From assembly GCF_000025505.1 (NCBI RefSeq), contig NC_013849.1, positions 1,980,001 to 2,012,000 on the forward strand: DNA of 32,000 bases, given 5' to 3'. This DNA comes from Ferroglobus placidus DSM 10642. GTDB lineage: Archaea; Halobacteriota; Archaeoglobi; Archaeoglobales; Archaeoglobaceae. A model generated the notes under the pieces. It worked only from the letters and a program-made list of their open reading frames with translations, made no database searches and was not told the DNA's origin. How positions within the stretch are numbered: position 1 is the stretch's first letter; every line of letters begins with the position of its first letter. The translations under genes and the position numbers were made by a program. Positions 4,661 through 31,248 of the stretch are shown here, in pieces.

Positions 4661-4711
4661 TATCGATAACCGTTAAATTTATATCGGTCTTCCACATGAT
4701 TAATTGTGACA
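4661..4711 (+). promoter_or_regulatory. promoter/operator cassette P1: 19-mer ATAACCGTTAAATTTATAT (4666-4684) plus 18-mer ACATGATTAATTGTGACA (4694-4711)
   Basis: The 19-mer recurs exactly at 7295-7313 (minus strand) and 18122-18140. The 18-mer recurs exactly at 18151-18168. The TATA (TTTATAT, 4678-4684) predicts a TSS near 4702-4708, inside the 18-mer. Confidence 0.75.
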
Positions 4712-4743
4712 CCAGTTTGCTTCTTGCTATGGGGGTGCAGATA

Positions 4744-7236: not shown

Positions 7237-7294
7237 TCCGCACCCCCCAAATTCTATAATTCTCCCAAATGATTTCAACTAGAGGATTTGAATG

Positions 7295-7318
7295 ATATAA
7301 ATTTAACGGTTATTGATC
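7295..7318 (-). promoter_or_regulatory. promoter/operator cassette P2: exact 19-mer ATAACCGTTAAATTTATAT in minus orientation
   Basis: Plus-strand atataaatttaacggttat at 7295-7313 is the reverse complement of the 19-mer. The upstream flank GATCA matches the TATC[G/A] flank of the other copies. It lies about 60 nt upstream of the CoA-transferase ATG. Confidence 0.7.
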
Positions 7319-7555: not shown

Positions 7556-7600
7556 TTAAGTAATTCATAAAGTGTGGAGCTGAAAACGGAGGGACTCGAA

Positions 7601-10913: not shown

Positions 10914-11002
10914 CCGATCACCATTAATTGTTTACCGATAGTTTTAAATATAATTTTCGGTTTAATTCCATTATCATTAAGGAAAAATCTGGAGGTGAAA
11001 AG
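10914..11002. promoter_or_regulatory. 89-bp divergent intergenic region with a quasi-palindromic TATA (TTTTAAATATAA, 10942-10953) and an ATTAATTGT box (10923-10931)
   Basis: The single AT-rich box is spaced to serve both etfB (ATG 10913, near-leaderless) and the FadH-like gene (SD 10991-10998, TTG 11003). ATTAATTGT is the core of the 18-mer found at P1 and P4. Confidence 0.4.
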
Positions 11003-14961: not shown

Positions 14962-15022
14962 TATCGTTAACCGTTAAATTTATATTGGTTTTTCAGCTAA
15001 AAATTGTGATAATAAATCACAA
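14962..15022 (+). promoter_or_regulatory. promoter/operator cassette P3: TTAACCGTTAAATTTATAT (14967-14985) plus perfect 7-5-7 palindrome TTGTGAT-AATAA-ATCACAA (15004-15022)
   Basis: It matches the 19-mer at 18/19 positions and forms a perfect TTAAC-C-GTTAA inverted repeat. AATTGTGA (15002-15009) sits 17 nt after the TATA end, the same spacing as at P1 and P4. Confidence 0.7.
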
Positions 15023-15051
15023 CTTATTAGGGGTTAGGGGTGGTGGAATTT

Positions 15052-18187: not shown

Positions 18188-20242
18188 ATGAGAATCGGGA
18201 TCGATGTCGGTGGAACTTTTACCGACGTTGTTCTTGTAGATGATCAATCTGGAAAGCTTTACCACACGAAAACTCCAACAACGCCAAAAGATCTGACTGT
18301 CGGAGTTTTAAGAGGTATTGAAAAAATTCTTGAGATCAGTTCTGCAAAAATTGAAAATTTGAAGTATATAGTCCACGGAACGACGATAGGAACGAACGCA
18401 CTCATAGAAAGAAAAGGAGCAAAAACAGGGCTTATAACTACTGAAGGATTCATAGACGTGCTGGAGATAGGTAGATTCCAGCGGCCTAAAGAAGGACTTT
18501 ATGATATGACCGTAGACAACCCAGAACCTCTTGTTCCGAGGTATTTGAGAAAGGGTGTTAAAGAGAGAGTTAACAGCAAGGGAGAAATCGTAAGACCTCT
18601 CGACGAAAAATCGGCAAGAGAAGCTGTGGAGTTTTTAATCTCTGAAGGTGTTGAATCAATAGCAGTTTCGTTTCTGTTCTCGTTTTTGAATCCGACTCAC
18701 GAGAGAAGGGTTAGAGAGATAATAAAAGAAATTAATCCAGAGATTTACATTTCTCTTTCCTCTGATATAGCTCCAGAATTTAGGGAATACGAGAGAACAA
18801 GTACGACAGTCCTGAATGCCTACCTCCAGCCAATACTTGAAAGGTATCTTGAAGATCTTCAGAAAAAGCTTGAGAAAAAGTATGGAATAGAAGACCTAAG
18901 AATTATGCTCGTTCACGGAGGAATAATGCCGGCTGAAACCGCTAAGAAGTATGCGGTGGCAATAGTAAATTCAGGACCAGTGGGAGGAGTTGTAGCTGGA
19001 AGCTTTATTGGCAACATTCTCGGTTTTGAGAACATAATCACAGTAGACATGGGAGGGACAAGTTTTGACATTTCTTTAATTGAGAAAGGGACTCCCGTCG
19101 TTACTACGGAGGGAAAATTCGAAGGTTATCCTGTTAAAATACCCATCGTAGATGTGCATACAATTGGAGCTGGTGGAGGAAGCATAGCTTGGCTCGATAA
19201 AGCCGGAGTTCTTAATGTTGGTCCGCAAAGTGCTGGGGCAGATCCCGGACCAGCATGTTACGCAAAAGGAGGGAAAGATGCTACTGTGACTGATGCGAAC
19301 TTAGTTCTTGGAAGACTTTCTGCGGAGAACTTCCTTGGAGGAGAAATGAAGCTCGATGAGTCTCTTGCGAGAAAAGCAATCTCGAAACTTGCGAATCAGA
19401 TGGACATGAGCGTAGAAGAAGTAGCTATGGGAATAATAAGAGTAGCTGATGCGAAGATGGAAAAGGGGATAGCTACATGCTCGACTGAGAGGGGTTACGA
19501 TGTAAGAGAATTTGCTCTTGTCGCTTTCGGCGGAGCTGGACCATTGCATGCAGTTCAGATAGCCATGGATCTTAACATACCTTGGGTCATAATTCCACCA
19601 CTTCCTTCGGAATTCTCTGCTTTCGGACTTCTTGTTGCAGACATCAAGCATGACTACGTAAAAAGCTACATTGTCGAGGAGGATGAAGTAGATCTGTCTC
19701 TTCTCCAGAGTTACTTTGCTGAGCTGGAGAAAAGAGGAATTGAGCAGTTAAGAAAAGAGGGTGTAAGGGAGGAAGATATGGAAATCAAGTGGTCGATGGA
19801 CATGCGTTATTCCGGACAGAGCTACGAGTTGAACATTCCGGTTGAGAGGGGGACGAAGTTCACGAAGGAGAGTTTTGGAGAAATCATAAAGAGGTTCCAC
19901 AAAAGACACGAGGAAGTTTACACTTACAGTTCCGAGGATGAAAAGGTGGAAATCGTTAATCTAAGGGTAACTGCAATTGGAAAAGTGCCGAAAATTCAGC
20001 TTGAAAAAATCGAGAGAGGAAATAGAAATCCCCCAAGCGAGGCTTTAAAAGAAGAAAGAGAAGTTTATTTTGGAAACGGATTTTTGAGAGTACCAGTTTA
20101 CACAAGAGAGCTGATGCTTGCTGGAAATTTTGTAGAAGGACCATGTATAATCGAGGAGAGGTTCTCGACGACTGTTATTCACCCAGGCTGTAAGGCTAAG
20201 ATTGACGATTTCGGTAATATCATTGTTGAGGTGAAAGTCTGA
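18188..20242 (+). CDS. hyuA: hydantoinase A/oxoprolinase family subunit (HyuA; acetone/acetophenone carboxylase beta-type)
   Basis: 684 aa. The ASKHA ATPase start is MRIGIDVGGTFTDVVLVD, followed by the second phosphate motif VDMGGTSFDISLI. Confidence 0.85.
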   Translation: MRIGIDVGGTFTDVVLVDDQSGKLYHTKTPTTPKDLTVGVLRGIEKILEISSAKIENLKYIVHGTTIGTNALIERKGAKTGLITTEGFIDVLEIGRFQRPKEGLYDMTVDNPEPLVPRYLRKGVKERVNSKGEIVRPLDEKSAREAVEFLISEGVESIAVSFLFSFLNPTHERRVREIIKEINPEIYISLSSDIAPEFREYERTSTTVLNAYLQPILERYLEDLQKKLEKKYGIEDLRIMLVHGGIMPAETAKKYAVAIVNSGPVGGVVAGSFIGNILGFENIITVDMGGTSFDISLIEKGTPVVTTEGKFEGYPVKIPIVDVHTIGAGGGSIAWLDKAGVLNVGPQSAGADPGPACYAKGGKDATVTDANLVLGRLSAENFLGGEMKLDESLARKAISKLANQMDMSVEEVAMGIIRVADAKMEKGIATCSTERGYDVREFALVAFGGAGPLHAVQIAMDLNIPWVIIPPLPSEFSAFGLLVADIKHDYVKSYIVEEDEVDLSLLQSYFAELEKRGIEQLRKEGVREEDMEIKWSMDMRYSGQSYELNIPVERGTKFTKESFGEIIKRFHKRHEEVYTYSSEDEKVEIVNLRVTAIGKVPKIQLEKIERGNRNPPSEALKEEREVYFGNGFLRVPVYTRELMLAGNFVEGPCIIEERFSTTVIHPGCKAKIDDFGNIIVEVKV

Positions 20243-21955
20243 TGAAGGCTGATGCTATTACGATGCAGGTTATTAGATACGCTCTTGAGAGGATTGCCGA
20301 CGAAATGGGGTATACAATAGTCAGAAGTGCGAGATCAACCATAATCAAGGAAGTTATGGACATCAGTTGTGCAATTTTCAATGAGAAAGGATATACGATA
20401 GCCCAAGCTCATCACGCCCCTATGCTTCTCGCGGGTTTCGAAATCACTATGAGAGAACTCGTCAAAAGATTTCCTCCAGATTCTCTTGAGGATGGAGACG
20501 TTATAATCTCTAACGATCCTTACATGGGTGGACAGCACGTTATGGACGTTCAAACCTTCGCTCCCGTGTTCTACGAAGATGAGCTCGTGGGTTTCGTTGG
20601 AAGCATTGCACACATGACAGACATGGGAGGAGCTGTTCCGGGAGGAGTTGCTGGAGGAATGACGGACATATTCATGGAAGGTCTTAGACTTCCGATGATC
20701 AAGCTGTACAAAGGATACAAAGAAAATGAGGATGTTTTTGCGATTTTGAAAAACAACATAAGAGTTCCAGAAAAAACTCTTGGTGATATAAGAGCTCTCG
20801 TCTCTGCAGACTACGTTGGGATCAAAAAGGTTAGAGAACTCTACAAAAAATACGGTGTCGAAGTAGTTTCTGAATGCCTAAACGCTCTTCTGGATTACTC
20901 CGAAAGGAGGATTAGAGAGGGGATAGAAAAGCTTCCCGATGGAAAATACAGCGGAGAAGTTTACATCGATGATGACGGAGTTACAGATGACCCAGTCAGG
21001 ATTAAAGTAAACGTTAGGATAAAAGGAGACGAAATAAAAGTCGATTTCAACGGAACTTCGAAGCAGGTTAGGGGTAACATAAACTGTCCGATAGCAACGA
21101 CCTATGCGGCAGTTTACTACACAATCATAGCGGTTGTCGATCCTCACGTCCCGATAAACTCCGGCTGCTACAGACCGATAACAATCGAAGCCGAAGAAGG
21201 ATTAGTGGTCAACCCCCGCCCACCAGCGGCTGTTGCAGCGAGAACCAACTGCTCTCAGAAAATAACTGAAGCCATGCTCAAAGCTTTGAGCGAAGCAGCC
21301 CCTGACAGAGTTATGGCTGGCAGTCATGCCCAGATAACAACCTGCAGCTTCAGCGGTTATCAGAACGGAAAGAGGTGGATATACATCGAAATCATGGGAG
21401 GAGGAATGGGAGCTCGTTCGTTCAAAGATGGTAAAGACGGGCAGGACTCGCATCTTGCGAGGTTTATGAACACTCCGATAGAAGCTATAGAGATAGAATA
21501 TCCGGTAATGATAGAAAGGTACGAGTTCATACCCGATTCAGGGGGAGCAGGAAAATACAGAGGAGCTTTAGGCTTGAGAAGAGACATCAGGTTTTTGACG
21601 GACGAAGTAGTTTTCGCAAGGTATGGAGACAGTCAAAAGTTTCCCCCCCCACGGTCTTTTCGGAGGAAAACCCGGCATGCCAGGAAGGTTTATTCTTAAT
21701 CCGGATAAAGACAACATCCGTTTGAAATCGAAGGGGGTTGACGTTTTGAGGAAGGGGGATGTCGTTAGCTTGCAGCTTCCCGGAGGCGGAGGATACGGAA
21801 ATCCGCTTGAAAGAGACTTTTCTCTAATCGAAAGGGATGTCAGAGACGGGAAAGTTACGATAGAGGGAGCTAAGAGAGATTACAAGGTTGTAATAGATCC
21901 AAAAACCCTGAAGGTTGATGTTGAGGCTACGAAAAAGCTGAGAGGTGAAATCTAA
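20242..21955 (+). pseudogene. hyuB: hydantoinase B/oxoprolinase family subunit (HyuB), reading frame broken in a C8 tract
   Basis: ORF 20242-21699 carries the HyuB N-terminal and core regions. ORF 21623-21955, in the +1 frame, carries the conserved C-terminus (GLFGGKPGMPG...LPGGGGYGNPLERD). The frames switch at CCCCCCCC, 21643-21650. Removing one C gives the continuous sequence ...QKFPPHGLFGGKPG. Confidence 0.8.
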
Positions 21956-22446
21956 TGGAGATCAAGCTTGTAGAAGAAATCTCTCACGACAAAGAGTCTG
22001 GAGGGTGGTATTATAAAGGGATTCGCTATCTTCTCATCCGACCCGAAACGATAATTGGGATCCAGAAGAAGGTGAATGAAATTTGTGGAGAAAGTAAAGA
22101 GGCTCTTTTCTCAGGAGGATATACCGGAGGTAAGTTATCTGCCGAAAAGTTTGCGAAAGAACTTGGACTTTCAAAAGAGGAAATCCTTGCTTTCATGTGC
22201 TCCATGGGAACTCAGCTTGGCTGGGGAAAAATGGAGTGGGAACTTCGCGAAGAAAAATTCGTTGTTAGAGTTCACAACTCTCCCTTTGCCGAAGCGTACG
22301 GAAATTCAACGAAAGGAGTTTGTCATCTCATCGAAGGTGTTTTTGCCGGGGTTGGGGAGATAATTTTTGGAAAAGCAGTAAGCGAGGAAAGACTGTGCAA
22401 GGCAAAAGGAGATGATTACTGCGAAATAGTTGTTGAGAGAAGGTGA
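21955..22446 (+). CDS. V4R (4-vinyl reductase) domain small-molecule-binding protein
   Basis: 163 aa. Motifs: RYLLIRPETIIGIQ, GGYTGG, GWGKMEW, VHNSPFA, CHLIEGVFAG and a C-terminal CKAKGDDYCEIVV, matching the V4R pattern. Its TAATG start overlaps the hyuB stop. Confidence 0.7.
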   Translation: MEIKLVEEISHDKESGGWYYKGIRYLLIRPETIIGIQKKVNEICGESKEALFSGGYTGGKLSAEKFAKELGLSKEEILAFMCSMGTQLGWGKMEWELREEKFVVRVHNSPFAEAYGNSTKGVCHLIEGVFAGVGEIIFGKAVSEERLCKAKGDDYCEIVVERR

Positions 22447-22452
22447 TGTTTT

Positions 22453-23595
22453 ATGGACTTCACTTTCACCGAAGAGCAGGAGATTTTTAGAAGAACTCTT
22501 CAGGAATTCGTTGAGAAGAAAGTTAAGCCAAAAGCAAACGAAATTGAAAGGAGTGGAGAATTCCCCAAGGATCTTTTCAAAGAACTTGCAGATCTGGGCT
22601 GCTTTGGTTTGAGGTATCCAGAAGAGTACGGTGGTGCCAACGCTGACTGCGTAACCTTCTGCATCTTCTGCGAGGAAATGGCTAAAGGTTTGCTGAGTTT
22701 GGCTGCGAGCGCTACGATTCAAGCTTTCCAGAGCACTCATTTCATAGCCAAATTTGGAAGTGAAGAGTTGAAAGAGGAATACCTCGTTCCAGCCATTAAG
22801 GGAGAGAAAATAGGAGCAATCTGCATGACGGAACCAAATGCCGGCTCGGATCTCGGTAGTATTACAACGACGGCTGTAAAAGACGGAGATGAGTACGTTA
22901 TAAACGGAGTAAAAACTTGGGTGACAAACGGAAGCATAGCCGACTTTTACACTGTCGCCGCAAGAACGAGTAAAGGGAAAGGAATGGAGGGAATAGATTT
23001 CTTTTTGGTGCCAAGAAAAGCGGAAGGGGTTGAAGTGGGAAGAGAAATTGACAAAATGGGTTTGAGAGGTTTGAAGACTTCTGAAGTCGTCTTTAACGAT
23101 GTAAGAATTCCGGCTGATCACCTCCTTGGCGAGAAGGAGGGGATGGGTCACATATATTTGAGGGAGATCTTAGCTGAGATAAGAGTATCCACCGGAGCTT
23201 TAAGCCTTGGAGCCGGTTCTGCTGTGATAAAGGATGCGATAGAATACGCAAAGGAGAGAGTTCAGTTTGGAAAGCCTATAGGAAAGTTTCAGGCTGTGAG
23301 GTTGATGATTGCAGAGGCTGCAACCGAGCTCGAAGCTGCAAAATGGCTCGTTTATCATGCGGCATGGCTTATAGATAAAGGAAGGAAGCCTATTAAAGAA
23401 GCAAGCATGGCGAAGCTGTTTGCGAGTGAGGCGGCGGTTAAAGCGGTTGACATAGCTTCAAGAGTGTTCGCAAGTTACGGTTTTTCAAAAGATCACGCTG
23501 TTGAAAGATTCTACAGAGATGTTCGCTTTCTTATCATCGGAGGTGGAACTTCTGAAATTTTGAAGCTGATTATTGCTTCCGAGCTGGGGTTGTGA
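22453..23595 (+). CDS. acyl-CoA dehydrogenase family flavoprotein
   Basis: 380 aa. Motifs: MDFTFTEEQEIFR, CMTEPNAGSDLGS, and C-terminal FYRDVRFLIIGGGTSEILK. Confidence 0.85.
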   Translation: MDFTFTEEQEIFRRTLQEFVEKKVKPKANEIERSGEFPKDLFKELADLGCFGLRYPEEYGGANADCVTFCIFCEEMAKGLLSLAASATIQAFQSTHFIAKFGSEELKEEYLVPAIKGEKIGAICMTEPNAGSDLGSITTTAVKDGDEYVINGVKTWVTNGSIADFYTVAARTSKGKGMEGIDFFLVPRKAEGVEVGREIDKMGLRGLKTSEVVFNDVRIPADHLLGEKEGMGHIYLREILAEIRVSTGALSLGAGSAVIKDAIEYAKERVQFGKPIGKFQAVRLMIAEAATELEAAKWLVYHAAWLIDKGRKPIKEASMAKLFASEAAVKAVDIASRVFASYGFSKDHAVERFYRDVRFLIIGGGTSEILKLIIASELGL

Positions 23596-23605
23596 GGTGA
23601 CGATT

Positions 23606-24022
23606 ATGGCTGAGAAAAAGAGGAGACTGAGAGTCCTCATCGCAAAAACGGGATTAGACGGTCATGATAAAGCAGCGAAGATCCTCGCTTTGTATCTGAG
23701 AAATGCAGGTTACGAAGTCCTTTATACTGGATTAAGAAGAACGATAGATGAAATTGTTAAAACGGCTATAGAAGAAGATGTTGACGTTATCGGATTAAGC
23801 TTCTACTCCGGAGTCCACCTTCCAGCCACTCAGGAACTTATGCAGAAGCTGAAGGAGGCTAACGTCGAAGATATAGTCGTAGTTGTTGGGGGTGTGATTC
23901 CTAAAAAGGATGTAAAGAAGCTGAAGGAAATGGGGGTTGCGGAAGTTTTTCCGGTTGGAACGAGAATTGATCATGTTTTGGATTTCTTCAAAAAGCTTGA
24001 GGAGGAGATCTGCCATGACTAA
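23606..24022 (+). CDS. B12-binding small subunit of an acyl-CoA mutase (methylmalonyl-CoA mutase C-terminal-domain type)
   Basis: 138 aa. Motifs: RVLIAKTGLDGHDKAAKILA (His-on DxH motif), EDVDVIGLS and VVVVGGVIP. SD GAGGTGA precedes ATG 23606. Confidence 0.85.
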   Translation: MAEKKRRLRVLIAKTGLDGHDKAAKILALYLRNAGYEVLYTGLRRTIDEIVKTAIEEDVDVIGLSFYSGVHLPATQELMQKLKEANVEDIVVVVGGVIPKKDVKKLKEMGVAEVFPVGTRIDHVLDFFKKLEEEICHD

Positions 24023-25634
24023 AAAGGAAATAACTGAAAAAGATCTAAAAAAAGTTGTTTTGGAGTCAGGAATTGAGGTTAAGCCGATTTACCGTCCCGA
24101 GGATATAAAGGATATCGATTACGAGAGGGATATTGGTGATCCGGGAGAATTCCCTTATACGAGGGGGATTCACAAATTCATGTACCGCTACCGTCCTTGG
24201 ACGATGAGGCAGTATGCAGGCTTTGGCTCTCCGGAAGACTCTAATCAGAGGTTCAAGTTCCTCCTTGCACACGGACAGGACGCTTTAAACGTGGCATTCG
24301 ACTTACCAACCCAGCTTGGACTCGATTCGGATCACCCTCTGGCGAAATGGGAGGTTGGAAGAGTAGGGATGGCTGTAGATACTTTGAAAGACATGGAGAT
24401 AGCTTTTGACGGGATACCATTAGATAAAGTTAGTGTTTCTCTAACAATAAACGCTACAGCTCCGATAATTCTCTCGATGTATTTCGTTGTGGCTGAAAAG
24501 CAGGGAGTTGATTTAAAGAAGATAAGAGCAACTCCTCAGAATGACATTTTAAAGGAGTTCATTTCAAGGGGAGCTTGGATATTCCCAGTGGAACCTTCGG
24601 TAAAGCTCGTTTGTGATATAATTGAATTCTGCGCAAAGAACGCTCCGAAAGTTTATCCTGTCAGCGTTTGCGGATACCACATAAGAGAAAACGGAGCAAC
24701 TCCCGCCCAAGAAGTCGGTTATGCATTCAGCATAGCGTTAACGTACATAGACAAGGTTTTAGAGAGAGGATTGAAGGTCGATGACTTCGTTCCTCGTTTC
24801 TCTTTCAATTTTAATGTCTGGGGAAACATGTTTGAGCAAATAGCAAAACTCAGAGCAGCGAGGAGACTTTGGGCAAAGATAATTAGAGATAGGTACGGAG
24901 CCAAGAATCCCGATTCCATGAAGCTGAAAATGATCGCTGGTGGAGGGGGGAGCGGTCTTACTTATGAGCAGCCACTAAACAATATAGTTAGAGCTGCTTA
25001 CTACGCTCTCGTGGCAGCTTTAAGTGGAACACAGACGATGGCTCTTTGCACATACGACGAAGCTTATACGATTCCTTCAGCTAAAGCCTCCCTCATAGCT
25101 TTGAGAACTATGCAAATTCTAATGGAGGAAACCGGAGTTTGCGATACCGTCGATCCTCTTGGGGGATCTTACTACATAGAGTGGCTGACGAACGAGATGG
25201 AAAAGAAGATAGTGGAAGCAATGGAGGAAGTTGAGAAGTGGGGTGGGATGATAAGAGCGATAGAAAAAGGATACATTCAAGCTAAATTGGCTAAACAGTC
25301 CTATGAATATTACAGAAAAATACAAACAGGGGAAATCGTGAAGGTTGGAGTAAATAAGTACAGAATGGAGGAAGAAGAAGAGAAGGTGACCGAAATCTAC
25401 GAGTTTGATGAAAATGCTTACCAGAGACAAGTAGAGAGGTTAAAAGAAGTGAAAAACAGCAGAAACAATTTAAAGGTTAAGGAGAGCTTAGAAGAGATCA
25501 GAAAGGCTATAAAAAGGGACGAGAACCTCATGCCTTACATAATGGAAGCGGTAAGGCACTACGCAACTGTTGGAGAGATTACGCAGGTTTTGAAGGACGA
25601 GTACGGAGTGTTCAAAGAACCGTCAATTTTCTAA
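24015..25634 (+). CDS. acyl-CoA mutase large (substrate-binding TIM barrel) subunit, methylmalonyl-CoA mutase family
   Basis: 539 aa. Motifs: FPYTRGIHKFMYRYRPWTMRQYAGFGSPEDSNQRFKFLL, AFDLPTQLGLDSD and PQNDILKEFISRGAWIFP. ATG 24015 follows GGAGGAG and overlaps the small subunit by 8 nt. Confidence 0.85.
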   Translation: MTKKEITEKDLKKVVLESGIEVKPIYRPEDIKDIDYERDIGDPGEFPYTRGIHKFMYRYRPWTMRQYAGFGSPEDSNQRFKFLLAHGQDALNVAFDLPTQLGLDSDHPLAKWEVGRVGMAVDTLKDMEIAFDGIPLDKVSVSLTINATAPIILSMYFVVAEKQGVDLKKIRATPQNDILKEFISRGAWIFPVEPSVKLVCDIIEFCAKNAPKVYPVSVCGYHIRENGATPAQEVGYAFSIALTYIDKVLERGLKVDDFVPRFSFNFNVWGNMFEQIAKLRAARRLWAKIIRDRYGAKNPDSMKLKMIAGGGGSGLTYEQPLNNIVRAAYYALVAALSGTQTMALCTYDEAYTIPSAKASLIALRTMQILMEETGVCDTVDPLGGSYYIEWLTNEMEKKIVEAMEEVEKWGGMIRAIEKGYIQAKLAKQSYEYYRKIQTGEIVKVGVNKYRMEEEEEKVTEIYEFDENAYQRQVERLKEVKNSRNNLKVKESLEEIRKAIKRDENLMPYIMEAVRHYATVGEITQVLKDEYGVFKEPSIF

Positions 25635-25657
25635 AGCATGAAAGCGGAGTGTTAAAA

Positions 25658-26662
25658 ATGATAAGCAGCGAAAGGAAAATAATAGAAATTTTGAAAATTC
25701 TTTCAGAGCAAAAAGAGCCGGTAGGAGCCAAGTTTATAGCTGATCAGCTGAAAAAAAGAGGAATCTACCTGACAGAGCCTACCGTTCGCTACTACTTGAG
25801 AATTCTCGACGAAAGAGGCTTGACTAAAAACTACGGATTGCGGGGAAGAGTAATTACGGAAAAGGGTTTGAAAGAAATAGAGAAAGGGGATATAGCCGAT
25901 AGAATAGGGTACAGCATAAGCAGAGTTCACGAATGCGTTTTTTACTCTGACTTCGATGTGGAAAGTGGAGAGGGTAAGGTAGTTGCAAACTTGGCAATCT
26001 TTCCGAGAGAGTACTTGGAAGAAGTTTTGGACATGTTTTACAGGTGCTGGAAAAAAGGTTTGACATTCAGCGATAAAGTAATAGTGGATGAGAACATTCC
26101 CTTTATCGAGGAAAACGAGGTGGGATTGTACTACATTTCAAGCTTTACACTCGATGCCATTCTTTACAGAAACGGAATAGTCTCTTCACCTAGGTTTGCG
26201 GGATCCATAGAGATCTCAAACTTCAACTTCGTGAGGTTTACACAGGTCATAGGACTCGAGGAATCATCAATCACCGCTTTAGACCTCTTCATTCAGAGGA
26301 TGTACTCTGATAAGGACGAGGAGTCTATTTCCAACCTCCTTGAGAAAGGAGAAGGGGAAGTTTACGGAATGTACAGAGAAATACCGTTCGTGGCAAGAGA
26401 AAAAACGATAGAGATTCTTGAAAAATTAAAAGAGTACGGAATCTCTCCTCTTTACGTAATCGGCGAGCTGGACAAAAGCGTTTGTGGCATTCCGCCGAAG
26501 GGTGTGAACAAAGTTGGATTGGTTTGCGTGGGACCTTCAACACCCGTAGGAATCCTCAGGGCTTTGAAAGTTCCGATTAGAGTGCACATATCAAGCGAGA
26601 TTATCGAGTTTTCCAAATTTAAGAGCCTTGAGAGTTATTTAGAGGTGAAGAGTTATGAGTAA
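25658..26662 (+). CDS. NrpR-family transcriptional regulator (N-terminal winged HTH plus one DUF128/NRD-type domain)
   Basis: ERKIIEILKILSEQKEPVGAKFIADQLKKRGIYLTEPTVRYYLRILDERGLTKNYGLRGRVITEKGLKEIEKG matches my memory of the NrpR N-terminus. About 334 aa fits the short single-NRD type. I start at ATG 25658, after GGAG. Confidence 0.65.
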   Translation: MISSERKIIEILKILSEQKEPVGAKFIADQLKKRGIYLTEPTVRYYLRILDERGLTKNYGLRGRVITEKGLKEIEKGDIADRIGYSISRVHECVFYSDFDVESGEGKVVANLAIFPREYLEEVLDMFYRCWKKGLTFSDKVIVDENIPFIEENEVGLYYISSFTLDAILYRNGIVSSPRFAGSIEISNFNFVRFTQVIGLEESSITALDLFIQRMYSDKDEESISNLLEKGEGEVYGMYREIPFVAREKTIEILEKLKEYGISPLYVIGELDKSVCGIPPKGVNKVGLVCVGPSTPVGILRALKVPIRVHISSEIIEFSKFKSLESYLEVKSYE

Positions 26663-27137
26663 AAAACTCGTTTTTGATTTTACGAAATGTACTGGATGCA
26701 GAGCTTGCGAATTGGCTTGCAGCTTCGCTAACGAGGGTGTTTTTTCCCCTTCCAAGGCAAGAGTTCGGGTTGTGAAGTTTGAGTGGGATGGTGTAGACAT
26801 ACCCATAGGATGCGAACACTGCGAAGAAGCACCTTGCATGATAATCTGCCCGGTTAAAGCGATTTACAGAGATGAAGAAACGAATGCAGTTTTGCTCGAC
26901 CCAGACATTTGCATAGGCTGCAAGCAGTGCATGGTGGTATGTCCTTTCGGTGCTATAGGCTTTGACGAGGATAGAAAAGTTCTTTTCAAATGCGATCTTT
27001 GCAGGGGAGATCCCGAATGCGTGAAGTGGTGCTTCACGGGAGCGATAAGTTACGTAACTCCAAATGAGGAGACATTAGAAAAGAGGATTAAGGTTGGAAA
27101 AAAGAAGGTTGCTGCTCAATCCGTCTGGGGTGTTTAA
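26655..27137 (+). CDS. four-cluster [4Fe-4S] ferredoxin-type electron-transfer subunit (AOR partner)
   Basis: 160 aa with four Cys motifs: CTGCRACELAC, CEHCEEAPCMIICP, CIGCKQCMVVCP and CDLCRGDPECVKWC. It overlaps the regulator gene by 8 nt. Confidence 0.85.
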   Translation: MSKKLVFDFTKCTGCRACELACSFANEGVFSPSKARVRVVKFEWDGVDIPIGCEHCEEAPCMIICPVKAIYRDEETNAVLLDPDICIGCKQCMVVCPFGAIGFDEDRKVLFKCDLCRGDPECVKWCFTGAISYVTPNEETLEKRIKVGKKKVAAQSVWGV

Positions 27138-27138
27138 G

Positions 27139-29124
27139 ATGGTTGGGAAACTGTATGCCTACGCTGGTAAGACGTTGAAAGTTGATCTGACGAGGGAGAA
27201 AGTCGTTGAAGAACCTTTGAATAAAGAGCTTGCGAGAAAATTCCTCGGAGGAAGGGGTTTGAACGCTAAGCTGCTTTTCGATCTTGTCCCTCCGGATGTC
27301 CATCCCCTAAGCCCTAAAAACGTTTTGCTTATAGCTACTGGACCAATAAACGGTCTTCTTGGGGTTACAACTGGAAGAATTGACGTCACATCCCTCTCAC
27401 CGCTAACCGGAATATTTGGAAATTCCAACGCTGGAACGGATTTTGCTGCAGAACTGAAATACGCTGGTTACGATAACATAATAATCTTTGGAAGGGCAAA
27501 AAAGCCAGTTTACCTTCTTATAGAAGACGGCAGTGTGGAAATCAGAGATGCTTCAGATTTGAAAGGAGCTGGAGTATTCGAAACAACACATGTTCTTAAA
27601 GAAAGGCACGGGGACGTAAAGGTTGCTGCAATCGGACCAGCTGCAGAAAACGGAGTTCTTTACGGTTCAATCATCTTCGACTACTGGGATGCTGCCGGAA
27701 GGAGCGGTATGGGCACGGTAATGGCTTCGAAAAATTTGAAAGCTATAGCAGTAAGAGGTAGCGGATCCCTTGAAGTTGCGGACCCAGAAAGGTACTACGA
27801 AGTTGTAAGAGAAGGGTGGCTTGCACTTATGAACGATCCCGGATTTAAAACTCAAGAGCATTCGGTTCTTGGAACTGCAGTTTGCGTTGGTTGGGGTAAC
27901 GCTCAAGGATGGCTTCCTACAAGGAACTTCAGAGAATCTTATTTCGAAGAGGCAGATAAGATAAGCGGAGAAGTTTTCAGAGACAAGTATTCGGTTAAGG
28001 ATTCTCCCATCCCGGCTGGGAGAGCCTGCATGTCTTGTCCTAACAGATGCAAGCGTTATGGAGTGATAAGAAGCGGTAAGTATGCCGGAACGAGGGGGAA
28101 CATTGAATTTGAAGCTATAGCTGCTTTTGGAAGTAAGTGCGGAGTGAGCGACTTCGATGCTGTTTTCCATGCGAACATGCTTGCTAACGATTACGGAATG
28201 GATGCGGTTTCTACAGGAAACATGATTGCCACATTCATGGAACTCAGAGAAGAGGGAATTATAGATGAGAAGTTTCTGGATGGACTTGACCTCAGGTTCG
28301 GGAATGCTGATGCTATGATCGAAGCCATACACAAAATTGCTAAGAGAGAAGGAAAAATTGGAGAGCTTGGTGCCCTCGGATCTTATTTGGCTACGAAAGC
28401 CATTGGAGACAAGGCGGTCTATTACACCTCCAACATCAAAGGAATGGATTCAATAGCATGCGATCCGAGAGCAGCTAAAGGCTTTGGTTTCGCTTTTGCT
28501 GTTGCAAGCAGAGGTTCGGATCATTTAAGAGCTCATCCGGTTTTTGAAATGCTGAAATTCCCGCCAGAAGTTGGGAAGGAGCTTTTTGGTAGTCCGGAAG
28601 CAGTTGATCTGAGAAAGTACGGAGGAAAACCGGAAATGGTTGCATGGCACGAGGAGTTGGCTGCTATAACAGACTCAATCGGCTCCTGCCGCTTCATGCA
28701 CGCAAGCTACTACATTCAATATCCAGTTCCAGAACTTCTGCACAAGTACCTAAAGCTTGGAGGAAAAGCTTACTCTTTAAAGTACCACGAATGGATATCA
28801 GCCGCTACCGGTTGGGAGATTAGCTATGAGGACCTGCTGAGAATTGGAAAAAGGATCATTACCGTTGAGAGAGCGTTCAATACGAGGAGGGGCATAAGAA
28901 GAAAAGACGATACCTTGCCGGAAAGATTCTTCAAAGAGAAAATTCCAAAAGGTCCGGCTAAAGGAGAAGTTTACTCAAAAGAGGTTTTCGAAAAAATGCT
29001 CGATCGCTATTACGAGATCCGGGGATGGGATAAAGAGACCGGATTAATTAAAAGAGAGACTCTCGAATCCCTTGAGCTTCACGATGTCCTAAGTGTTCTC
29101 GAAAAAGAGGGGTTGGTGGTATAA
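27139..29124 (+). CDS. aor: tungsten-containing aldehyde:ferredoxin oxidoreductase family protein
   Basis: 661 aa. Motifs: YAGKTLKVDLT, FLGGRGL, SPLTG, AAGRSGMG, the cluster motif CMSCPNRC, and the pterin-binding SRGSDHLRA. ATG 27139 lies 1 nt after the ferredoxin stop. Confidence 0.9.
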   Translation: MVGKLYAYAGKTLKVDLTREKVVEEPLNKELARKFLGGRGLNAKLLFDLVPPDVHPLSPKNVLLIATGPINGLLGVTTGRIDVTSLSPLTGIFGNSNAGTDFAAELKYAGYDNIIIFGRAKKPVYLLIEDGSVEIRDASDLKGAGVFETTHVLKERHGDVKVAAIGPAAENGVLYGSIIFDYWDAAGRSGMGTVMASKNLKAIAVRGSGSLEVADPERYYEVVREGWLALMNDPGFKTQEHSVLGTAVCVGWGNAQGWLPTRNFRESYFEEADKISGEVFRDKYSVKDSPIPAGRACMSCPNRCKRYGVIRSGKYAGTRGNIEFEAIAAFGSKCGVSDFDAVFHANMLANDYGMDAVSTGNMIATFMELREEGIIDEKFLDGLDLRFGNADAMIEAIHKIAKREGKIGELGALGSYLATKAIGDKAVYYTSNIKGMDSIACDPRAAKGFGFAFAVASRGSDHLRAHPVFEMLKFPPEVGKELFGSPEAVDLRKYGGKPEMVAWHEELAAITDSIGSCRFMHASYYIQYPVPELLHKYLKLGGKAYSLKYHEWISAATGWEISYEDLLRIGKRIITVERAFNTRRGIRRKDDTLPERFFKEKIPKGPAKGEVYSKEVFEKMLDRYYEIRGWDKETGLIKRETLESLELHDVLSVLEKEGLVV

Positions 29125-29325
29125 ATGCCCCTTTGTAAAGCTTGTAAGAAAAGAATAGACCTCTCTCAGCCAAACGTTTACGTTAACATTTGCAGGAAGT
29201 GTGGAAAAACGTTTTGCGATCTTCACTTTGACAAATCAAAGAAGCTTTGCGCATTCTGCTTAGGAGTCAAGCCAGAGGAGATGGAAGCAAGAAAGGGTGC
29301 GAGGATAACCTTCATAAGGAGGTGA
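29125..29325 (+). CDS. 66-aa Cys-rich zinc-ribbon mini-protein with an AN1-like motif
   Basis: CKACKK-x15-CRKCGKTFCDLH-x7-CAFC. The start abuts the AOR stop, and its stop overlaps the next start (TGATG). Confidence 0.55.
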   Translation: MPLCKACKKRIDLSQPNVYVNICRKCGKTFCDLHFDKSKKLCAFCLGVKPEEMEARKGARITFIRR

Positions 29326-29621
29326 TGATCAAGTTGATCGTTTTTGTGAAATATCTCGGATATTTTTCCCAAATCATCGGAAAAAGGGAAGAAAAAGTTT
29401 CGTTAGATAAAGGGGCGACGGTAGAAGTTTTGCTCCAAAATCTCGCTAAAAAATACGGTAGGAAGTTTGAAGAAGCTGTAGCTTCAAGAGCGTTTAGAAG
29501 TGCGGTAATTCTCGTCAATGGAGAGCAAGCGGATATGAAGAGAAAGCTAAATCATGGGGATAATGTTGTCATTTCTTTTCCGATGGGTGGGGGATCGCTT
29601 AGGGTCTGCCCCCGAAATTAA
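29325..29621 (+). CDS. MoaD/ThiS-family ubiquitin-like beta-grasp protein with a C-terminal tail after the GG motif
   Basis: 98 aa from ATG 29325, after AGGAGGTGA. MIKLIVFVKYLGYFSQIIGKREEKVSLDKGATV...HGDNVVISFPMGGG, then SLRVCPRN before the stop. Confidence 0.7.
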   Translation: MIKLIVFVKYLGYFSQIIGKREEKVSLDKGATVEVLLQNLAKKYGRKFEEAVASRAFRSAVILVNGEQADMKRKLNHGDNVVISFPMGGGSLRVCPRN

Positions 29622-29849: not shown

Positions 29850-30554
29850 ATGCTGGGTAAGATGAGCAAACAGACGGCTAAGGATTACGTCAGCGCAATT
29901 TCACGTTTTCTCGAAGACGAGATAAGAACGCCGAAGGATCTCGAAAACGCAATCCTGAAATCGCAAGGAGACAAGTTCGCAAAGGGAATAAGGAGATTCT
30001 TCAACTTCCTCGAAGATGAGGAGGTGGACGAACTCCTCGGCTTCCCCTTAGACAAGTGGAAGAAGAAAGCCCACATCAAGAAATACGACCCGAGGGAGGT
30101 TTTCATCAGCGACGAAGAACTCATCGAAGCCTATAACGAAGTTGCCGAGAAGTTCCCCGAACTCGAAACCATCCTTAAGCTGATGGTCTTCTCGGGAGTG
30201 AGGCTGAAATAGATTCTCGAAGCGCTCGAAACTTTCGACTCAGAGAACGTGGTAAAAGTGAACGGAAAGGTCGCAAGATACCCCATCGCTTCAGCGTCCA
30301 AAGGGAAGAAGAAAGCCTTTTGGATGCACTTCCCGGCAGAACTCGAAATTAAACCGATGAACGTAAGTTACCACGTTGCAAGGGAAAAGCTGAACCTCGG
30401 AAGAGTTTCGGCTAACTCGATCAGGAAGTGGAACTACAACTTTTTGATCTTGAATGAAGTTCCCGAAAGCGTTGCCGACTTCATTCAGGGAAGGGCGTCG
30501 GTAACCGTCGGAAGCTCCCACTACTTAGAAAAAACGAGACAAGCCATAGAATGA
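29850..30554 (+). pseudogene. tyrosine recombinase/integrase interrupted by one in-frame TAG (30210-30212)
   Basis: ORFs 29850-30212 and 30249-30554 are in the same frame, with open codons between them. Box I is SGVRLK*ILEAL. The later catalytic elements are SIRKWNYNF and GRASVTVGSSHY. Confidence 0.7.
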
Positions 30555-30556
30555 CA

Positions 30557-30928
30557 TCAGCCAACGACGGGAATGCTCACTTCGATCTCATCGTAGGGAA
30601 CGACAGGAACCTTTCTTCTCCTCTTACCTTTTTTCTCTTCCACGAATTTGACGAGTCCGAGCATTTCGAGAATTTCCAGATCCTTGATCACGTTCCTCCT
30701 GTTCCTCCCCAACAACTTAGCCAGTTCGTAAACGCTTTTCGGATTCTTCTCTTTTATCACGTGCAGAATCTTCAACCTTTCCGGAGTCAGAATTTTTCTG
30801 AGCGCTTCGTAACTCTCGAAAACGATTCTCTCGAACTCCACATCCTCTCCTTCATCGATTCTCCTCGCTACCTCCAAAAGTTCCTCCCTACTATCTCTCC
30901 TCCCGATCTCAATCCTCAACTTTACCAT
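30557..30928 (-). CDS. winged-HTH DNA-binding protein (antitoxin-like partner of the upstream small toxin-like gene)
   Basis: 123 aa from ATG 30928 (MVKLRIEIG...). The HTH region is LTPERLKILHVIKEKNPKSVYELAKLLGRNRRNVIKDLEILEMLGLV. The start overlaps the 3' end of the upstream pseudogene by about 20 nt. Confidence 0.6.
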   Translation of the reverse strand: MVKLRIEIGRRDSREELLEVARRIDEGEDVEFERIVFESYEALRKILTPERLKILHVIKEKNPKSVYELAKLLGRNRRNVIKDLEILEMLGLVKFVEEKKGKRRRKVPVVPYDEIEVSIPVVG

Positions 30929-31219
30929 ACAGCACCTCCTCCACGATTTTAACATCCTCGAAGAACCTCTCAATCAGCTTTTCGACGCTTTCAAACTCTA
31001 TTCCCTCCTCTTTATCGAAGAAGTGTCTGTGGTGTCCTTATCCCCTTTCGTTGTCGTAGCCGAGAACTCTCCTGTAGCTTTCGCCTTCAACGTGAACGTA
31101 AGCCATCGAGTACTTCACACCTCGGGAAAATCCTCGGACTTCGGAACCCTTCAAATATTGATCCGAATAATGTCCCCATGATCGTTGACCTCCTTGTAAT
31201 CCACGAGCAATTTTGCCAT
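30909..31219 (-). pseudogene. small toxin-like gene (YDNxxGKGxHxH-motif family, DUF6516/TumE-like from memory) with three lesions
   Basis: My reconstructed reading is MAKLLVDYKEVNDHGDIIRINI[TGA]RVPKSEDFP[frameshift]GVKYSMAYVHVEGESYRRVLGYDNERG[TAA]GHHRHFFDKEEGIEFESVEKLIERFFEDVKIVEEVLYGKVED. The lesions are TGA at 31151-31153, a frame change near 31121-31130, and TAA at 31038-31040. The 311-nt length is not a multiple of 3. Confidence 0.55.
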
Positions 31220-31221
31220 TC

Positions 31222-31248
31222 AATATGTGTTATGTAAGCACACATATT
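31222..31248. promoter_or_regulatory. perfect 9-bp inverted repeat AATATGTGT-N9-ACACATATT overlapping the TATA (TTTAAATAT, minus strand) of the toxin/wHTH pair
   Basis: The arms lie at 31222-31230 and 31240-31248. The repeat sits 3 nt upstream of the pseudogene ATG (31219), which fits an autoregulatory operator on a leaderless promoter. Confidence 0.5.

What the first reader, a model, noticed from the sequence alone, without database searches (positions are those of the whole stretch)
25658..26662. An NrpR-family regulator embedded and translationally coupled inside a carbon-catabolic operon
Established knowledge: NrpR is the 2-oxoglutarate-sensing repressor of nitrogen-assimilation genes in methanogens, with a GGAA-N6-TTCC operator.

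Here a short (HTH plus one NRD-type domain) homologue sits between the acyl-CoA mutase and the AOR ferredoxin gene, overlapping the latter by 8 nt. No nitrogen genes are in the window, and I did not see the NrpR operator at the local promoters.

It is therefore the obvious candidate for the factor that reads one of the two conserved promoter boxes. That would be a new ligand and operator specificity for the family, and an autoregulated one, since the gene lies inside the regulated operon.
Basis: partly seen in the sequence, partly recalled or inferred. Interest (0 to 1): 0.62.

Follow-up and report, generated by a model that had tools for sequence, protein, structure and literature searches.

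The report
NrpR-type regulator inside archaeal auxin-degradation operon
A divergent relative of the methanogen nitrogen repressor NrpR is a fixed part of the operon that Ferroglobus and a few related archaea use to break down indoleacetate (auxin) without oxygen. It is probably that pathway's own switch and not a nitrogen sensor, but its DNA site and its signal molecule are not yet known.

Summary
**Observation: confirmed.** The gene at 25658-26662 (+) encodes 334 aa with a winged helix (HTH_12, 6e-22) and one NrpR sensor domain (PF01995, 7e-66). The AF2 model fits PDB 3NEK at TM 0.85-0.87. The gene overlaps the ferredoxin gene by 8 nt and carries that gene's ribosome-binding site.

**The operon.** The "carbon-catabolic operon" is the published, predicted anaerobic indoleacetate (iaa) operon of Ferroglobus placidus. 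It contains IaaF with a GGG motif, the IaaGH mutase, HyuAB and others.

**Why it looks pathway-specific.**
- It belongs to a small, strongly supported clade on the longest stem of the family tree.
- That clade is always found at the same place in this operon.
- It occurs in exactly the 5 of 96 Archaeoglobi genomes that have IaaF.
- It is under strong purifying selection (dN/dS 0.02-0.04).
- It has lost family-invariant residues in the sensor domain and the invariant Arg of the recognition helix.
- GGAA-N6-TTCC is absent from the island promoters.
- The nearest outside relatives sit beside glutamate synthase and glutamate dehydrogenase genes.

**Best reading (about 0.6).** It is an autoregulated, pathway-specific regulator of the iaa island with changed effector and operator specificity.

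**Not shown.** Which conserved promoter element it binds, its ligand, and whether it represses or activates.

**Verdict.** New variant of a known kind; moderate interest. Other notes of this scan report bacterial NrpR homologues on other DNA, most beside nitrogen genes and several with a GGAA-N6-TTCC-type operator; none describes this clade.

The parts
25658..26662 (+). NrpR-family regulator gene of the iaa clade (334 aa; alternative GTG start at 25649)
   Evidence: ORF. Pfam HTH_12 plus PF01995. Clade placement. dN/dS 0.016-0.039.
25682..25879 (+). Winged helix-turn-helix (residues 9-74). The recognition helix reads E-P-T-V-R-Y-Y-L, so the family-invariant Arg41 is replaced by Pro (Pro or Gln across the clade).
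25904..26623 (+). Single NRD sensor domain (residues 83-322). Clade-specific replacements of family-invariant residues: G202E, D206T, P207A, G264P, G293P, E302A. C161S is shared with the other two Archaeoglobi clades.
26642..26662 (+). Coupling junction: the Shine-Dalgarno GAGGTGA and the ATG (26655) of the ferredoxin gene lie inside the last codons of the regulator gene, giving an 8-nt overlap.
   Evidence: The same GGAGGTG-plus-start arrangement occurs in all four other lineages.
26655..29124 (+). Ferredoxin (160 aa) and tungsten-type aldehyde:ferredoxin oxidoreductase (661 aa). This module always directly follows the regulator.
18188..29621 (+). iaa core operon: hyuA, hyuB (frame-shifted here), V4R, iaaF (GGG-motif ACAD), mutase small and large subunits, regulator, Fd, AOR, Zn-ribbon, ThiS-like.
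   Evidence: Identified as iaa from PMC8360864.
18118..18168 (+). P4, promoter of the operon that contains the regulator. It carries ATCAATAACCGTTAAATTTATAT (BRE/TATA with an upstream element) and box B ACATGATTAATTGTGACA over the expected start-site region.
   Evidence: Conserved against Ferroglobus sp. S146_96 while the flanks diverge.
4662..4711 (+). P1, the same promoter module with an identical box B, before the PaaK-type CoA ligase (IaaB-like).
7271..7317 (-). P2, the same BRE/TATA module before the family III CoA-transferase (IaaL-like). Downstream lies the dyad TTCAA-N9-TTGAA.
   Evidence: The arms are kept and the spacer is changed in the sister genome.
14963..15026 (+). P3, the same module before hbd-thiolase. 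Downstream lies the perfect palindrome TTGTGAT-N5-ATCACAA (15004-15022).
   Evidence: The 47 nt downstream of the TATA box are identical in the sister genome.
10923..10950 (+). P5, a related promoter-like element before the OYE/enoate-reductase-like gene: ATTAATTGTTTACCGATAGTTTTAAATA. It resembles the box of the non-Ferroglobus lineages.

Best explanation
**What it is.** The gene encodes a structurally intact, short-form member of the NrpR family: a winged helix plus one NRD sensor domain. In a few Archaeoglobi it has been recruited as the resident regulator of the anaerobic indoleacetate (iaa) degradation island.

**How it is expressed.** It is transcribed as an internal gene of the hyuA-to-ThiS operon from promoter P4. 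It is translationally linked to the downstream ferredoxin-AOR genes. Its own level therefore follows the operon it controls, which amounts to autoregulation.

**How it most likely works (inferred by analogy with NrpR).** Oligomers bind a site in the shared island promoter module (P1-P5), and the DNA affinity is changed by a small molecule bound to the NRD domain. The sensor domain has lost several family-invariant residues, the recognition helix has lost the invariant Arg, and no GGAA-N6-TTCC site is at these promoters. The effector is therefore most likely a pathway metabolite and not 2-oxoglutarate. Candidates are indoleacetate, indoleacetyl-CoA, or a later aminophenyl-succinyl or benzylmalonyl intermediate. 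The operator is most likely not the canonical one.

**Shown.** Family membership, architecture, clade, fixed synteny, 1:1 co-occurrence with the pathway, purifying selection, residue changes, and conserved promoter blocks.

**Inferred.** The DNA target, the ligand, and the sign of regulation.
For: **1. Family and fold.**

**2. The operon is the iaa operon.** The ACAD at 22453-23595 carries the IaaF-specific GGG in place of YEG (...LIIGGGTSEI...). PMC8360864 names the F. placidus iaa operon, IaaF, the IaaGH mutase, the IaaL transferase, the IaaB ligase and a dedicated ETF. All of these are in the window.

**3. Orthologues are rare and syntenic.** Orthologues at 64-97% identity exist only in four other Archaeoglobi genomes and a handful of metagenome contigs, out of 5.8 billion clusters. 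Every other homologue is at most 39% identical. In every case the gene sits directly before Fd-AOR and after the mutase, with a CoA-transferase in between in two lineages.

**4. Co-occurrence.** IaaF orthologues and this regulator occur in exactly the same 5 of 96 Archaeoglobi genomes.

**5. Tree.** The clade has 100% support and sits on the longest internal stem, 1.1 substitutions per site. It is separate from the second F. placidus paralogue and from the methanogen two-NRD NrpRs.

**6. Selection.** dN/dS is 0.016 at dS 0.75, and 0.039 for a second pair.

**7. Sensor-domain changes.** Residues that are 92-100% invariant in 101 other family members are replaced only in this clade: G202E, D206T, P207A, G264P, G293P, E302A.

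**8. Recognition helix.** Arg41 is present in 99 of 101 other members and is Pro or Gln here.

**9. Relatives outside the clade.** The nearest outside relatives sit next to glutamate synthase and glutamate dehydrogenase.

**10. Only conserved DNA-binding protein.** It is the only one conserved with the island.

**11. Shared promoter module.** The 18-nt promoter core occurs 4 times in the genome, all in the island. The promoter blocks are conserved against a sister genome at dS 0.75 while the flanks are scrambled.

**12. Motif enrichment.** TTAATTGT occurs 49 times in the genome, and 3 of those are in island promoters.
Against: - No binding, expression or ligand data could be obtained.
- Apart from position 41, and H46Y in Ferroglobus, the recognition helix is the family consensus (V43, R44, Y45). 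Operator specificity may therefore have changed less than supposed.
- I could not reduce the conserved promoter elements to one dyad motif. P1/P4, P2 and P3 each carry a different element downstream of the TATA box. In the four non-Ferroglobus lineages the conserved block lies upstream of and over the BRE, and not at the start site.
- Regulators encoded elsewhere could read these boxes.
- Indoleacetate contains nitrogen, so a retained 2-oxoglutarate/nitrogen input is not excluded.
- C161S is shared with the other Archaeoglobi clades, so it is not specific to this one.
Confidence: 0.6

Rival explanations
1. It is still a 2-oxoglutarate/nitrogen-status sensor. It ties expression of the indoleacetate (tryptophan-derived, nitrogen-containing) pathway to nitrogen or carbon status, as a local copy of the classical NrpR function.
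For: The NRD fold is fully retained. Most of the recognition helix is retained. The end product, 2-aminobenzoyl-CoA, still carries the amino group (PMC8360864). Its later release as ammonium is from my memory and was not checked here. The nearest relatives flank GOGAT and GDH genes. The second F. placidus paralogue is also not next to classical nitrogen genes.
Against: Six family-invariant sensor-domain residues are replaced only in this clade, and the stem branch is long. No GGAA-N6-TTCC lies at the island promoters, and the one nearby site is not conserved. The regulator is strictly coupled to one pathway and not to glnA or amt, whose promoters also lack the site.
Confidence: 0.2
2. It belongs functionally to the ferredoxin-AOR module only. 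It would, for example, respond to an aldehyde or to tungsten/redox state and control AOR-type genes here or elsewhere, not the whole iaa island.
For: The junction between regulator, Fd and AOR is the only invariant one. The junction upstream of the regulator varies: a 23-nt gap, a 190-nt gap, or an inserted CoA-transferase. In iaa-like clusters of Thermoplasmata, Thermodesulfobacteriota and Chloroflexi both the regulator and Fd-AOR are missing together, and the two bacterial clusters carry a Mo-hydroxylase.
Against: No promoter-sized gap lies between the regulator and Fd, so it cannot control them separately from the operon. The multi-copy promoter module points to island-wide control. A second Fd-AOR pair near the island in JdFR-27-type contigs has no such regulator.
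Confidence: 0.12
3. It is a decaying or functionless passenger gene, or a non-DNA-binding subunit.
For: It sits mid-operon, which is unusual for a regulator. In this genome hyuB, in the same operon, is frame-shifted.
Against: dN/dS is 0.016-0.039. Reading frames are intact in all lineages, the HTH is highly conserved and the model is confident.
Confidence: 0.03

Closest known systems
NrpR of Methanococcus maripaludis and Methanocaldococcus jannaschii (MJ0159, PDB 3NEK), the 2-oxoglutarate-responsive repressor of nif and glnA
   Same: Both have an N-terminal winged helix of the HTH_12 type and the NRD fold (PF01995 at 7e-66; TM 0.85-0.87 to 3NEK). The core of the recognition helix, V-R-Y-H/Y-L, is shared.
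   Different: - It has one NRD domain where these have two.
- The invariant Arg of the recognition helix and six invariant sensor-domain residues are replaced.
- No GGAA-N6-TTCC lies at the promoters it is associated with.
- It is embedded in a catabolic operon and not linked to nitrogen genes.
- NrpR function is taken from PMC9765008 and PMC4902934. The operator sequence is from the finding text and my memory of Lie et al. 2005.
Short-form NrpR homologues (HTH plus one NRD) of Methanosarcina (NrpRI), Bathyarchaeia and many bacteria
   Same: The architecture and length are the same (about 325-335 aa), and they are the nearest relatives outside the clade at 33-39% identity.
   Different: Those I examined sit next to glutamate synthase or glutamate dehydrogenase genes and keep Arg41, the Cys, GSSLDP, GGLNP and Glu302. 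That Methanosarcina NrpRI has this architecture and a nitrogen function is from my memory of Lie et al. 2007 (FEMS Microbiol Lett) and was not readable here.
IaaQ and IaaR, the regulators encoded in the iaa cluster of Aromatoleum aromaticum, and the MarR-type IacR/IadR regulators of aerobic auxin catabolism
   Same: They are functional analogues: regulator genes encoded inside or beside auxin-degradation loci (PMC8360864 Fig. 1 legend; PMC9613470).
   Different: The protein family is different for the MarR-type regulators. The families of IaaQ and IaaR were not checked here. No NrpR-family gene was found within 10 kb of IaaF orthologues in Thermoplasmata, Thermodesulfobacteriota or Chloroflexi.
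The other two Archaeoglobi NrpR-family clades, including the second F. placidus paralogue at genome position 984780-985845
   Same: They have the same architecture and share the C161S replacement. They are also not next to classical nitrogen genes.
   Different: They are 34% or less identical. One clade is fixed next to a TAXI-TRAP transporter and a class III aminotransferase. The other is seen next to acyl-CoA dehydrogenases or AtuA. Both keep G202, P207, G264, G293 and E302, and one also keeps D206.

Membership tests
NrpR family (structural: COG1693 / Pfam PF08461 plus PF01995) | N-terminal winged helix-turn-helix of the HTH_12 type | tested here: met
   PF08461 at residues 9-74, E 6e-22. 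The model has helices at 4-16, 24-33 and 40-52 plus a wing.
NrpR family (structural: COG1693 / Pfam PF08461 plus PF01995) | At least one NRD (DUF128) regulatory domain | tested here: met
   PF01995 positions 1-237 of 238, E 7.1e-66. 3NEK hit by sequence at 6.6e-23 and by fold at TM 0.85-0.87.
NrpR family (structural: COG1693 / Pfam PF08461 plus PF01995) | Family-invariant recognition-helix motif E-R-x-V-R-Y-H-L | tested here: inconclusive
   V43, R44, Y45 and L47 are kept. Arg41, present in 99 of 101 other members, is Pro or Gln in all 11 clade members. H46 is Tyr in Ferroglobus.
NrpR in the functional sense (2-oxoglutarate-sensing nitrogen repressor) | Conserved sensor-domain residues: the Cys in ...TVCS..., GSSLDP, GGLNP and Glu302 | tested here: not met
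   C161S, G202E, D206T, P207A, G293P and E302A are fixed in the clade, against 92-100% conservation elsewhere. The idea that the Cys matters for the 2-oxoglutarate response is my recollection of Lie and Leigh 2007, which was not readable.
NrpR in the functional sense (2-oxoglutarate-sensing nitrogen repressor) | GGAA-N6-TTCC operator at the regulated promoters | tested here: not met
   No perfect or 1-mismatch site lies in P1-P4, the 7279-7716 region, the 10900-10940 region or upstream of the gene. The site at 14922 is coding and not conserved in the sister genome. There are no sites in three of the four orthologous loci.
NrpR in the functional sense (2-oxoglutarate-sensing nitrogen repressor) | Genomic or regulatory link to nitrogen-assimilation genes (nif, glnA, glnK-amtB, GOGAT, gdh) | tested here: not met
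   None is in the window. glnA and amt-glnK lie elsewhere, and no site was seen in the upstream stretches inspected.
NrpR in the functional sense (2-oxoglutarate-sensing nitrogen repressor) | DNA binding relieved by 2-oxoglutarate | not testable with these tools
   Needs the purified protein.
iaa (anaerobic indoleacetate degradation) gene cluster | IaaF-type acyl-CoA dehydrogenase with GGG in place of YEG, together with a B12 mutase, HyuAB-like proteins, a family III CoA-transferase, a PaaK-type ligase and a dedicated ETF | tested here: met
   The GGG motif is in ORF 22453-23595. Criteria and the F. placidus assignment come from PMC8360864.

The most novel reading that the evidence does not exclude
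The NRD sensor domain, known only as a 2-oxoglutarate sensor, has been re-tuned in this clade to bind indoleacetate or one of its CoA-ester intermediates. The altered recognition helix reads a new operator in the multi-copy island promoter. This would be the first non-nitrogen regulon and effector for the NrpR family, and the first regulator of auxin catabolism described in Archaea. It is hyperthermophilic, so it could serve as a heat-stable auxin or aryl-CoA biosensor.
Probability: 0.45. Interest if true: 0.65.

Novelty: new variant of a known kind. Interest (0 to 1): 0.5.

Why it matters
**Annotation.** NrpR-family genes are annotated everywhere as "repressor of nif and glnA". This clade shows that the scaffold has been reused for a dedicated catabolic pathway. 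That warns against transferring the annotation, and it offers a natural experiment on how an archaeal one-component regulator changes effector and operator.

**A testable system.** The finding gives a concrete candidate for the unknown regulator of the archaeal iaa island. The system is small: one protein, five promoter copies and a short list of candidate ligands.

**Wider family.** The Archaeoglobi carry at least three NrpR-family clades, none of them next to classical nitrogen genes. This suggests a wider, undescribed radiation of the family.

Tried and rejected
**Canonical operator.**
- The genome has 94 GGAA-N6-TTCC sites, only one of them intergenic (genome 58225, upstream of a LivJ-like binding protein).
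- No site was seen in the glnA and amt upstream stretches inspected, and none in the island promoter cores.
- The site at 14922 looked suggestive because it lies 43 nt upstream of the P3 TATA box and is part of an 8-4-8 hairpin.
- It is coding and not conserved in Ferroglobus sp. S146_96, so I treat it as chance.

**One dyad motif for all boxes.**
- I tried to reduce all conserved promoter elements to a single dyad: CAATAA-N-TTATTG, TTGTGAT-N5-ATCACAA, TTCAA-N9-TTGAA and TAAC-N-GTTA.
- There is no consistent arrangement, and genome scans gave no further convincing sites.
- I report them only as candidates.

**Other candidate regulators.**
- The wHTH gene at 30557-30973 (-) lies in an integrase remnant and is not syntenic in any other lineage, so I rejected it as the island's regulator.
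- The V4R protein is not a likely dedicated partner sensor. It also accompanies HyuAB in a Thermoplasmata cluster that lacks the regulator.

**Searches that did not help.**
- A genome-contig scan with IaaF returned mostly generic acyl-CoA dehydrogenases and no bacterial iaa cluster.
- Lie and Leigh 2007, Wisedchaisri 2010, Ebenau-Jehle 2012 and Aklujkar 2014 are not held.
Full report
**1. What is at the coordinates**

The ORF at 25658-26662 (+) is real. The longest frame starts at GTG 25649, but a GGAG lies 8 nt before the ATG at 25658 and favours that start.

The 334-aa product has two domains:
- HTH_12 at residues 9-74, E 6e-22.
- One full-length NrpR regulatory domain (PF01995) at residues 83-322, E 7.1e-66.

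The only solved structure it matches by sequence is 3NEK, the NRD2 domain of M. jannaschii MJ0159 (6.6e-23). An AlphaFold2 model has mean pLDDT 86.6. Its sensor domain superposes on 3NEK at TM 0.85-0.87 and rmsd 2.6-2.8 A.

The gene follows the large subunit of a B12 acyl-CoA mutase after a 23-nt gap. It overlaps the start of a 4Fe-4S ferredoxin gene by 8 nt (ATGAGTAA), and the ferredoxin's GAGGTGA ribosome-binding site lies inside its last codons. An aldehyde:ferredoxin oxidoreductase gene follows. No nitrogen-assimilation gene is in the window.

**2. What the surrounding operon is**

The window belongs to a single 2,196,266-bp contig.

The "carbon-catabolic operon" is the archaeal version of the anaerobic indoleacetate (iaa) pathway. 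Schuhle et al. 2021 (PMC8360864) describe the components:
- IaaF, a decarboxylating benzylmalonyl-CoA dehydrogenase whose orthologues carry GGG in place of the YEG active-site motif.
- IaaGH, a B12 mutase.
- IaaL, a family III CoA-transferase.
- IaaB, a CoA ligase.

The paper states that the predicted iaa operon of F. placidus contains an iaaF orthologue and a dedicated ETF. The ACAD at 22453-23595 reads ...LIIGGGTSEI.... The mutase subunits, HyuA/HyuB-like proteins, PaaK-type ligase, CoA-transferase, ETF, Hbd and thiolase are all in the window. The pathway is therefore published, as a prediction. I found no accessible paper that mentions the regulator.

**3. A pathway-bound clade, not a stray nitrogen regulator**

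*Paralogues.* The genome has two PF01995 genes. The second is at 984780-985845 and is 34% identical. It lies next to a TAXI-TRAP transporter and a class III aminotransferase.

*Orthologues.* Among 96 Archaeoglobi genomes, orthologues of the window gene (64-97% identity) exist only in four others:
- Ferroglobus sp. S146_96
- Archaeoglobus sp. JdFR-27
- Archaeoglobi archaeon JdFR-42
- Archaeoglobaceae S009_4_esom

In a collection of 5.8 billion protein clusters only seven clusters exceed 64% identity. Everything else is at most 39% identical.

*Synteny.* In every genome and metagenome contig the order is the same: hyuA, hyuB, V4R, iaaF, mutase small, mutase large, regulator, Fd, AOR, Zn-ribbon, ThiS-like, ligase. 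Two lineages carry a CoA-transferase between the mutase and the regulator.

*Co-occurrence.* IaaF orthologues (E <= 1e-100) are found in exactly the same 5 of 96 genomes.

*Tree.* In a tree of 137 family members the clade has 100% support. It sits on the longest internal stem, 1.1 substitutions per site. It is separate from the paralogue-1 clade, from a third Archaeoglobi clade and from the methanogen two-domain NrpRs.

*Selection.* The gene is under strong purifying selection. dN/dS is 0.016 against the sister Ferroglobus at dS 0.75. It is 0.039 between the L074 contig (JdFR-27-type) and JdFR-42.

*Other iaa clusters.* iaa-like clusters around IaaF orthologues in Thermoplasmata, Thermodesulfobacteriota and Chloroflexi have no NrpR-family gene within 10 kb. 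They also lack Fd-AOR, and the two bacterial clusters carry a molybdenum hydroxylase. The regulator-Fd-AOR block is thus an Archaeoglobi-specific sub-module.

**4. Sequence evidence for changed specificity**

I compared the 11 clade members with 101 other family members, which include the methanogen NrpRs and bacterial and bathyarchaeal short forms. Residues that are 92-100% invariant elsewhere are replaced and fixed in this clade:

| Change | Motif affected |
|---|---|
| G202E, D206T, P207A | GSSLDP |
| G264P | - |
| G293P | GGLNP |
| E302A | - |

A 4-5-residue insertion also follows the first motif. The near-invariant Cys (99%) is Ser here, but it is Ser in all three Archaeoglobi clades.

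In the recognition helix the family motif is E-R-x-V-R-Y-H-L. Arg41, present in 99 of 101 other members, is Pro or Gln in all clade members. Ferroglobus additionally has H46Y. V43, R44 and Y45 are kept.

By contrast, the nearest outside relatives lie directly beside glutamate synthase genes (Bathyarchaeia) and glutamate dehydrogenase (a deltaproteobacterium).

Other notes of this scan are unchecked. They report that bacterial homologues sit mostly beside nitrogen genes and that several carry a GGAA-N6-TTCC-type operator.

**5. Promoters**

*A shared module.* The 18-mer TAACCGTTAAATTTATAT is a BRE/TATA with a short upstream element. It occurs four times in the genome, all in the island:

| Promoter | Position | Gene that follows |
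|---|---|---|
| P1 | 4667 | ligase |
| P2 | 7295, minus strand | CoA-transferase |
| P3 | 14968 | hbd operon |
| P4 | 18123 | hyuA operon, which contains the regulator |

A fifth, related element precedes the OYE-type reductase gene at 10923-10950.

*Footprint against the sister genome.* Against Ferroglobus sp. S146_96 the regulator gene has dS 0.75. Each promoter is conserved from about 10 nt upstream of the BRE to 30-47 nt downstream of the TATA box, while the flanks are scrambled. The conserved downstream parts are:
- P1 and P4: box B, ACATGATTAATTGTGAC.
- P3: the palindrome TTGTGAT-N5-ATCACAA, with 47 identical nucleotides.
- P2: the dyad TTCAA-N9-TTGAA, whose arms are kept while three spacer positions changed.

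*Other lineages.* In the four other lineages a 27-nt block is nearly invariant upstream of and over the BRE: CAACAAYARNTWATTGATTACCGATAA. It contains the near-palindrome CAATAA-N-TTATTG. The region downstream of the TATA box is not conserved there.

*A recurrent motif.* TTAATTGT occurs 49 times in the genome, and 3 of those are in island promoters.

*Limits.* I could not derive a single dyad consensus, and nothing links a particular element to this protein except that it is the only DNA-binding protein conserved with the island.

*Canonical operator.* GGAA-N6-TTCC is absent from the promoter cores. The site at 14922 is coding and not conserved. Three of the four orthologous loci have no such site at all.

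**6. Interpretation**

The best-supported reading (about 0.6) is a pathway-specific, autoregulated regulator of the iaa island, derived from the NrpR family, with a re-tuned sensor domain and an altered recognition helix.

By analogy with NrpR, repression at a start-site-proximal element is the default in Ferroglobus. NrpR is a repressor released by its effector (PMC9765008 and PMC4902934). The block upstream of the BRE that is conserved in the other lineages would fit activation equally well.

Rivals:
- It retains 2-oxoglutarate/nitrogen sensing and gates use of a nitrogen-containing substrate (0.2).
- Its role is restricted to the Fd-AOR module (0.12).
- It is a functionless passenger (0.03, contradicted by dN/dS).

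**7. Novelty**

The architecture and the family are known, and so is the pathway. Three things appear undescribed in the literature I could search:
- A distinct NrpR-family clade bound to a catabolic pathway.
- Loss of the invariant sensor residues and of the recognition-helix Arg.
- The absence of the canonical operator.

I could not read Aklujkar 2014, Schuhle 2016, Ebenau-Jehle 2012, Lie and Leigh 2007 or Wisedchaisri 2010. A mention of the gene there cannot be excluded.

I rate it a new variant of a known kind, with interest 0.5.

Noticed in passing
window 20242-21955: hyuB is split into a 485-aa frame and a 110-aa frame that overlap at 21623-21699. All other lineages have one 574-aa ORF. 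This is either a frameshift or a homopolymer sequencing error in the middle of the operon that contains the regulator.
   Followed up: partly
window 10923-10950: A fifth promoter-like element, ATTAATTGTTTACCGATAGTTTTAAATA, precedes the OYE/enoate-reductase-like gene. It resembles the box of the non-Ferroglobus lineages more than P1-P4. The annotated TTG start at 10928 is therefore probably too far upstream.
   Followed up: partly
window 14914-14935: GGAAGAGGAAATCCTCTTCC is an 8-4-8 inverted repeat that contains a perfect GGAA-N6-TTCC. It lies in the last codons of the RdhA-like gene, 43 nt upstream of the P3 TATA box. It is not conserved in Ferroglobus sp. S146_96, so it is probably chance or an RNA hairpin.
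   Followed up: yes
genome C1:984780-985845 (L003:8781-9845) and loci L009-L016: A second NrpR-family clade is fixed next to a TAXI-TRAP transporter (NMT1_3, DUF1850, DctM) and a class III aminotransferase in several Archaeoglobi genera. It has Gln for Arg44 and Asp or Glu for Arg41 in the recognition helix.
   Followed up: partly
loci L017-L033 (e.g. L018, L019, L017): A third Archaeoglobi NrpR-family clade lies next to acyl-CoA dehydrogenases (L018, L019) or an AtuA-family gene (L017). The family seems to have radiated into several non-nitrogen contexts in this class.
   Followed up: partly
L074:17956-18300 and both ends of contig G013:C47: In the Archaeoglobus sp. JdFR-27 lineage the whole hyuA promoter is duplicated in front of the CoA-transferase gene, together with about the first 80 nt of hyuA. 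This leaves a 48-aa HyuA N-terminal fragment, and the repeat breaks the assembly at contig ends.
   Followed up: partly
genome C1:58225: The only intergenic GGAA-N6-TTCC of the genome (GGAATAAAAGTTCC) lies 148 nt upstream of a 433-aa protein that, from its sequence alone (no family search run), looks like a LivJ-type periplasmic amino-acid-binding protein.
   Followed up: no
window 29850-31948: Two fragments of an archaeal phage-type integrase (29850-30212 and 30249-30554), a 138-aa HVO_A0114/MarR-like wHTH gene (30557-30973, minus strand) and a ParE-like toxin (31691-31948) follow the operon. They look like the remnant of an integrated element at the island's edge.
   Followed up: partly
L080:5940-5975 and L081:5960-5990: Upstream of two nitrogen-linked NrpR homologues lie palindromes of the type AAACG-N3/5-CGTTT: TAAACGATTCGTTTA in Bathyarchaeia and GGCAAACGATTGCCGTTTGCC in a deltaproteobacterium. 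The Bathyarchaeia GOGAT promoter also carries GGTAAGCTATTTCC after its TATA box.
   Followed up: no
L068:606-700 (minus strand), JdFR-42: Between the promoter and hyuA lies a possible 17-codon leader ORF (MESVGNGKAISVDGVFK). Its stop codon overlaps the hyuA start, and two GGTGAT repeats precede it.
   Followed up: no
window 4694-4756: The longest ORF of the PaaK-type ligase starts at ATG 4696, inside box B and only 11 nt after the end of the P1 TATA box. The ATG at about 4754, preceded by GGGGGTG and conserved in the sister genome, is the more likely start.
   Followed up: partly
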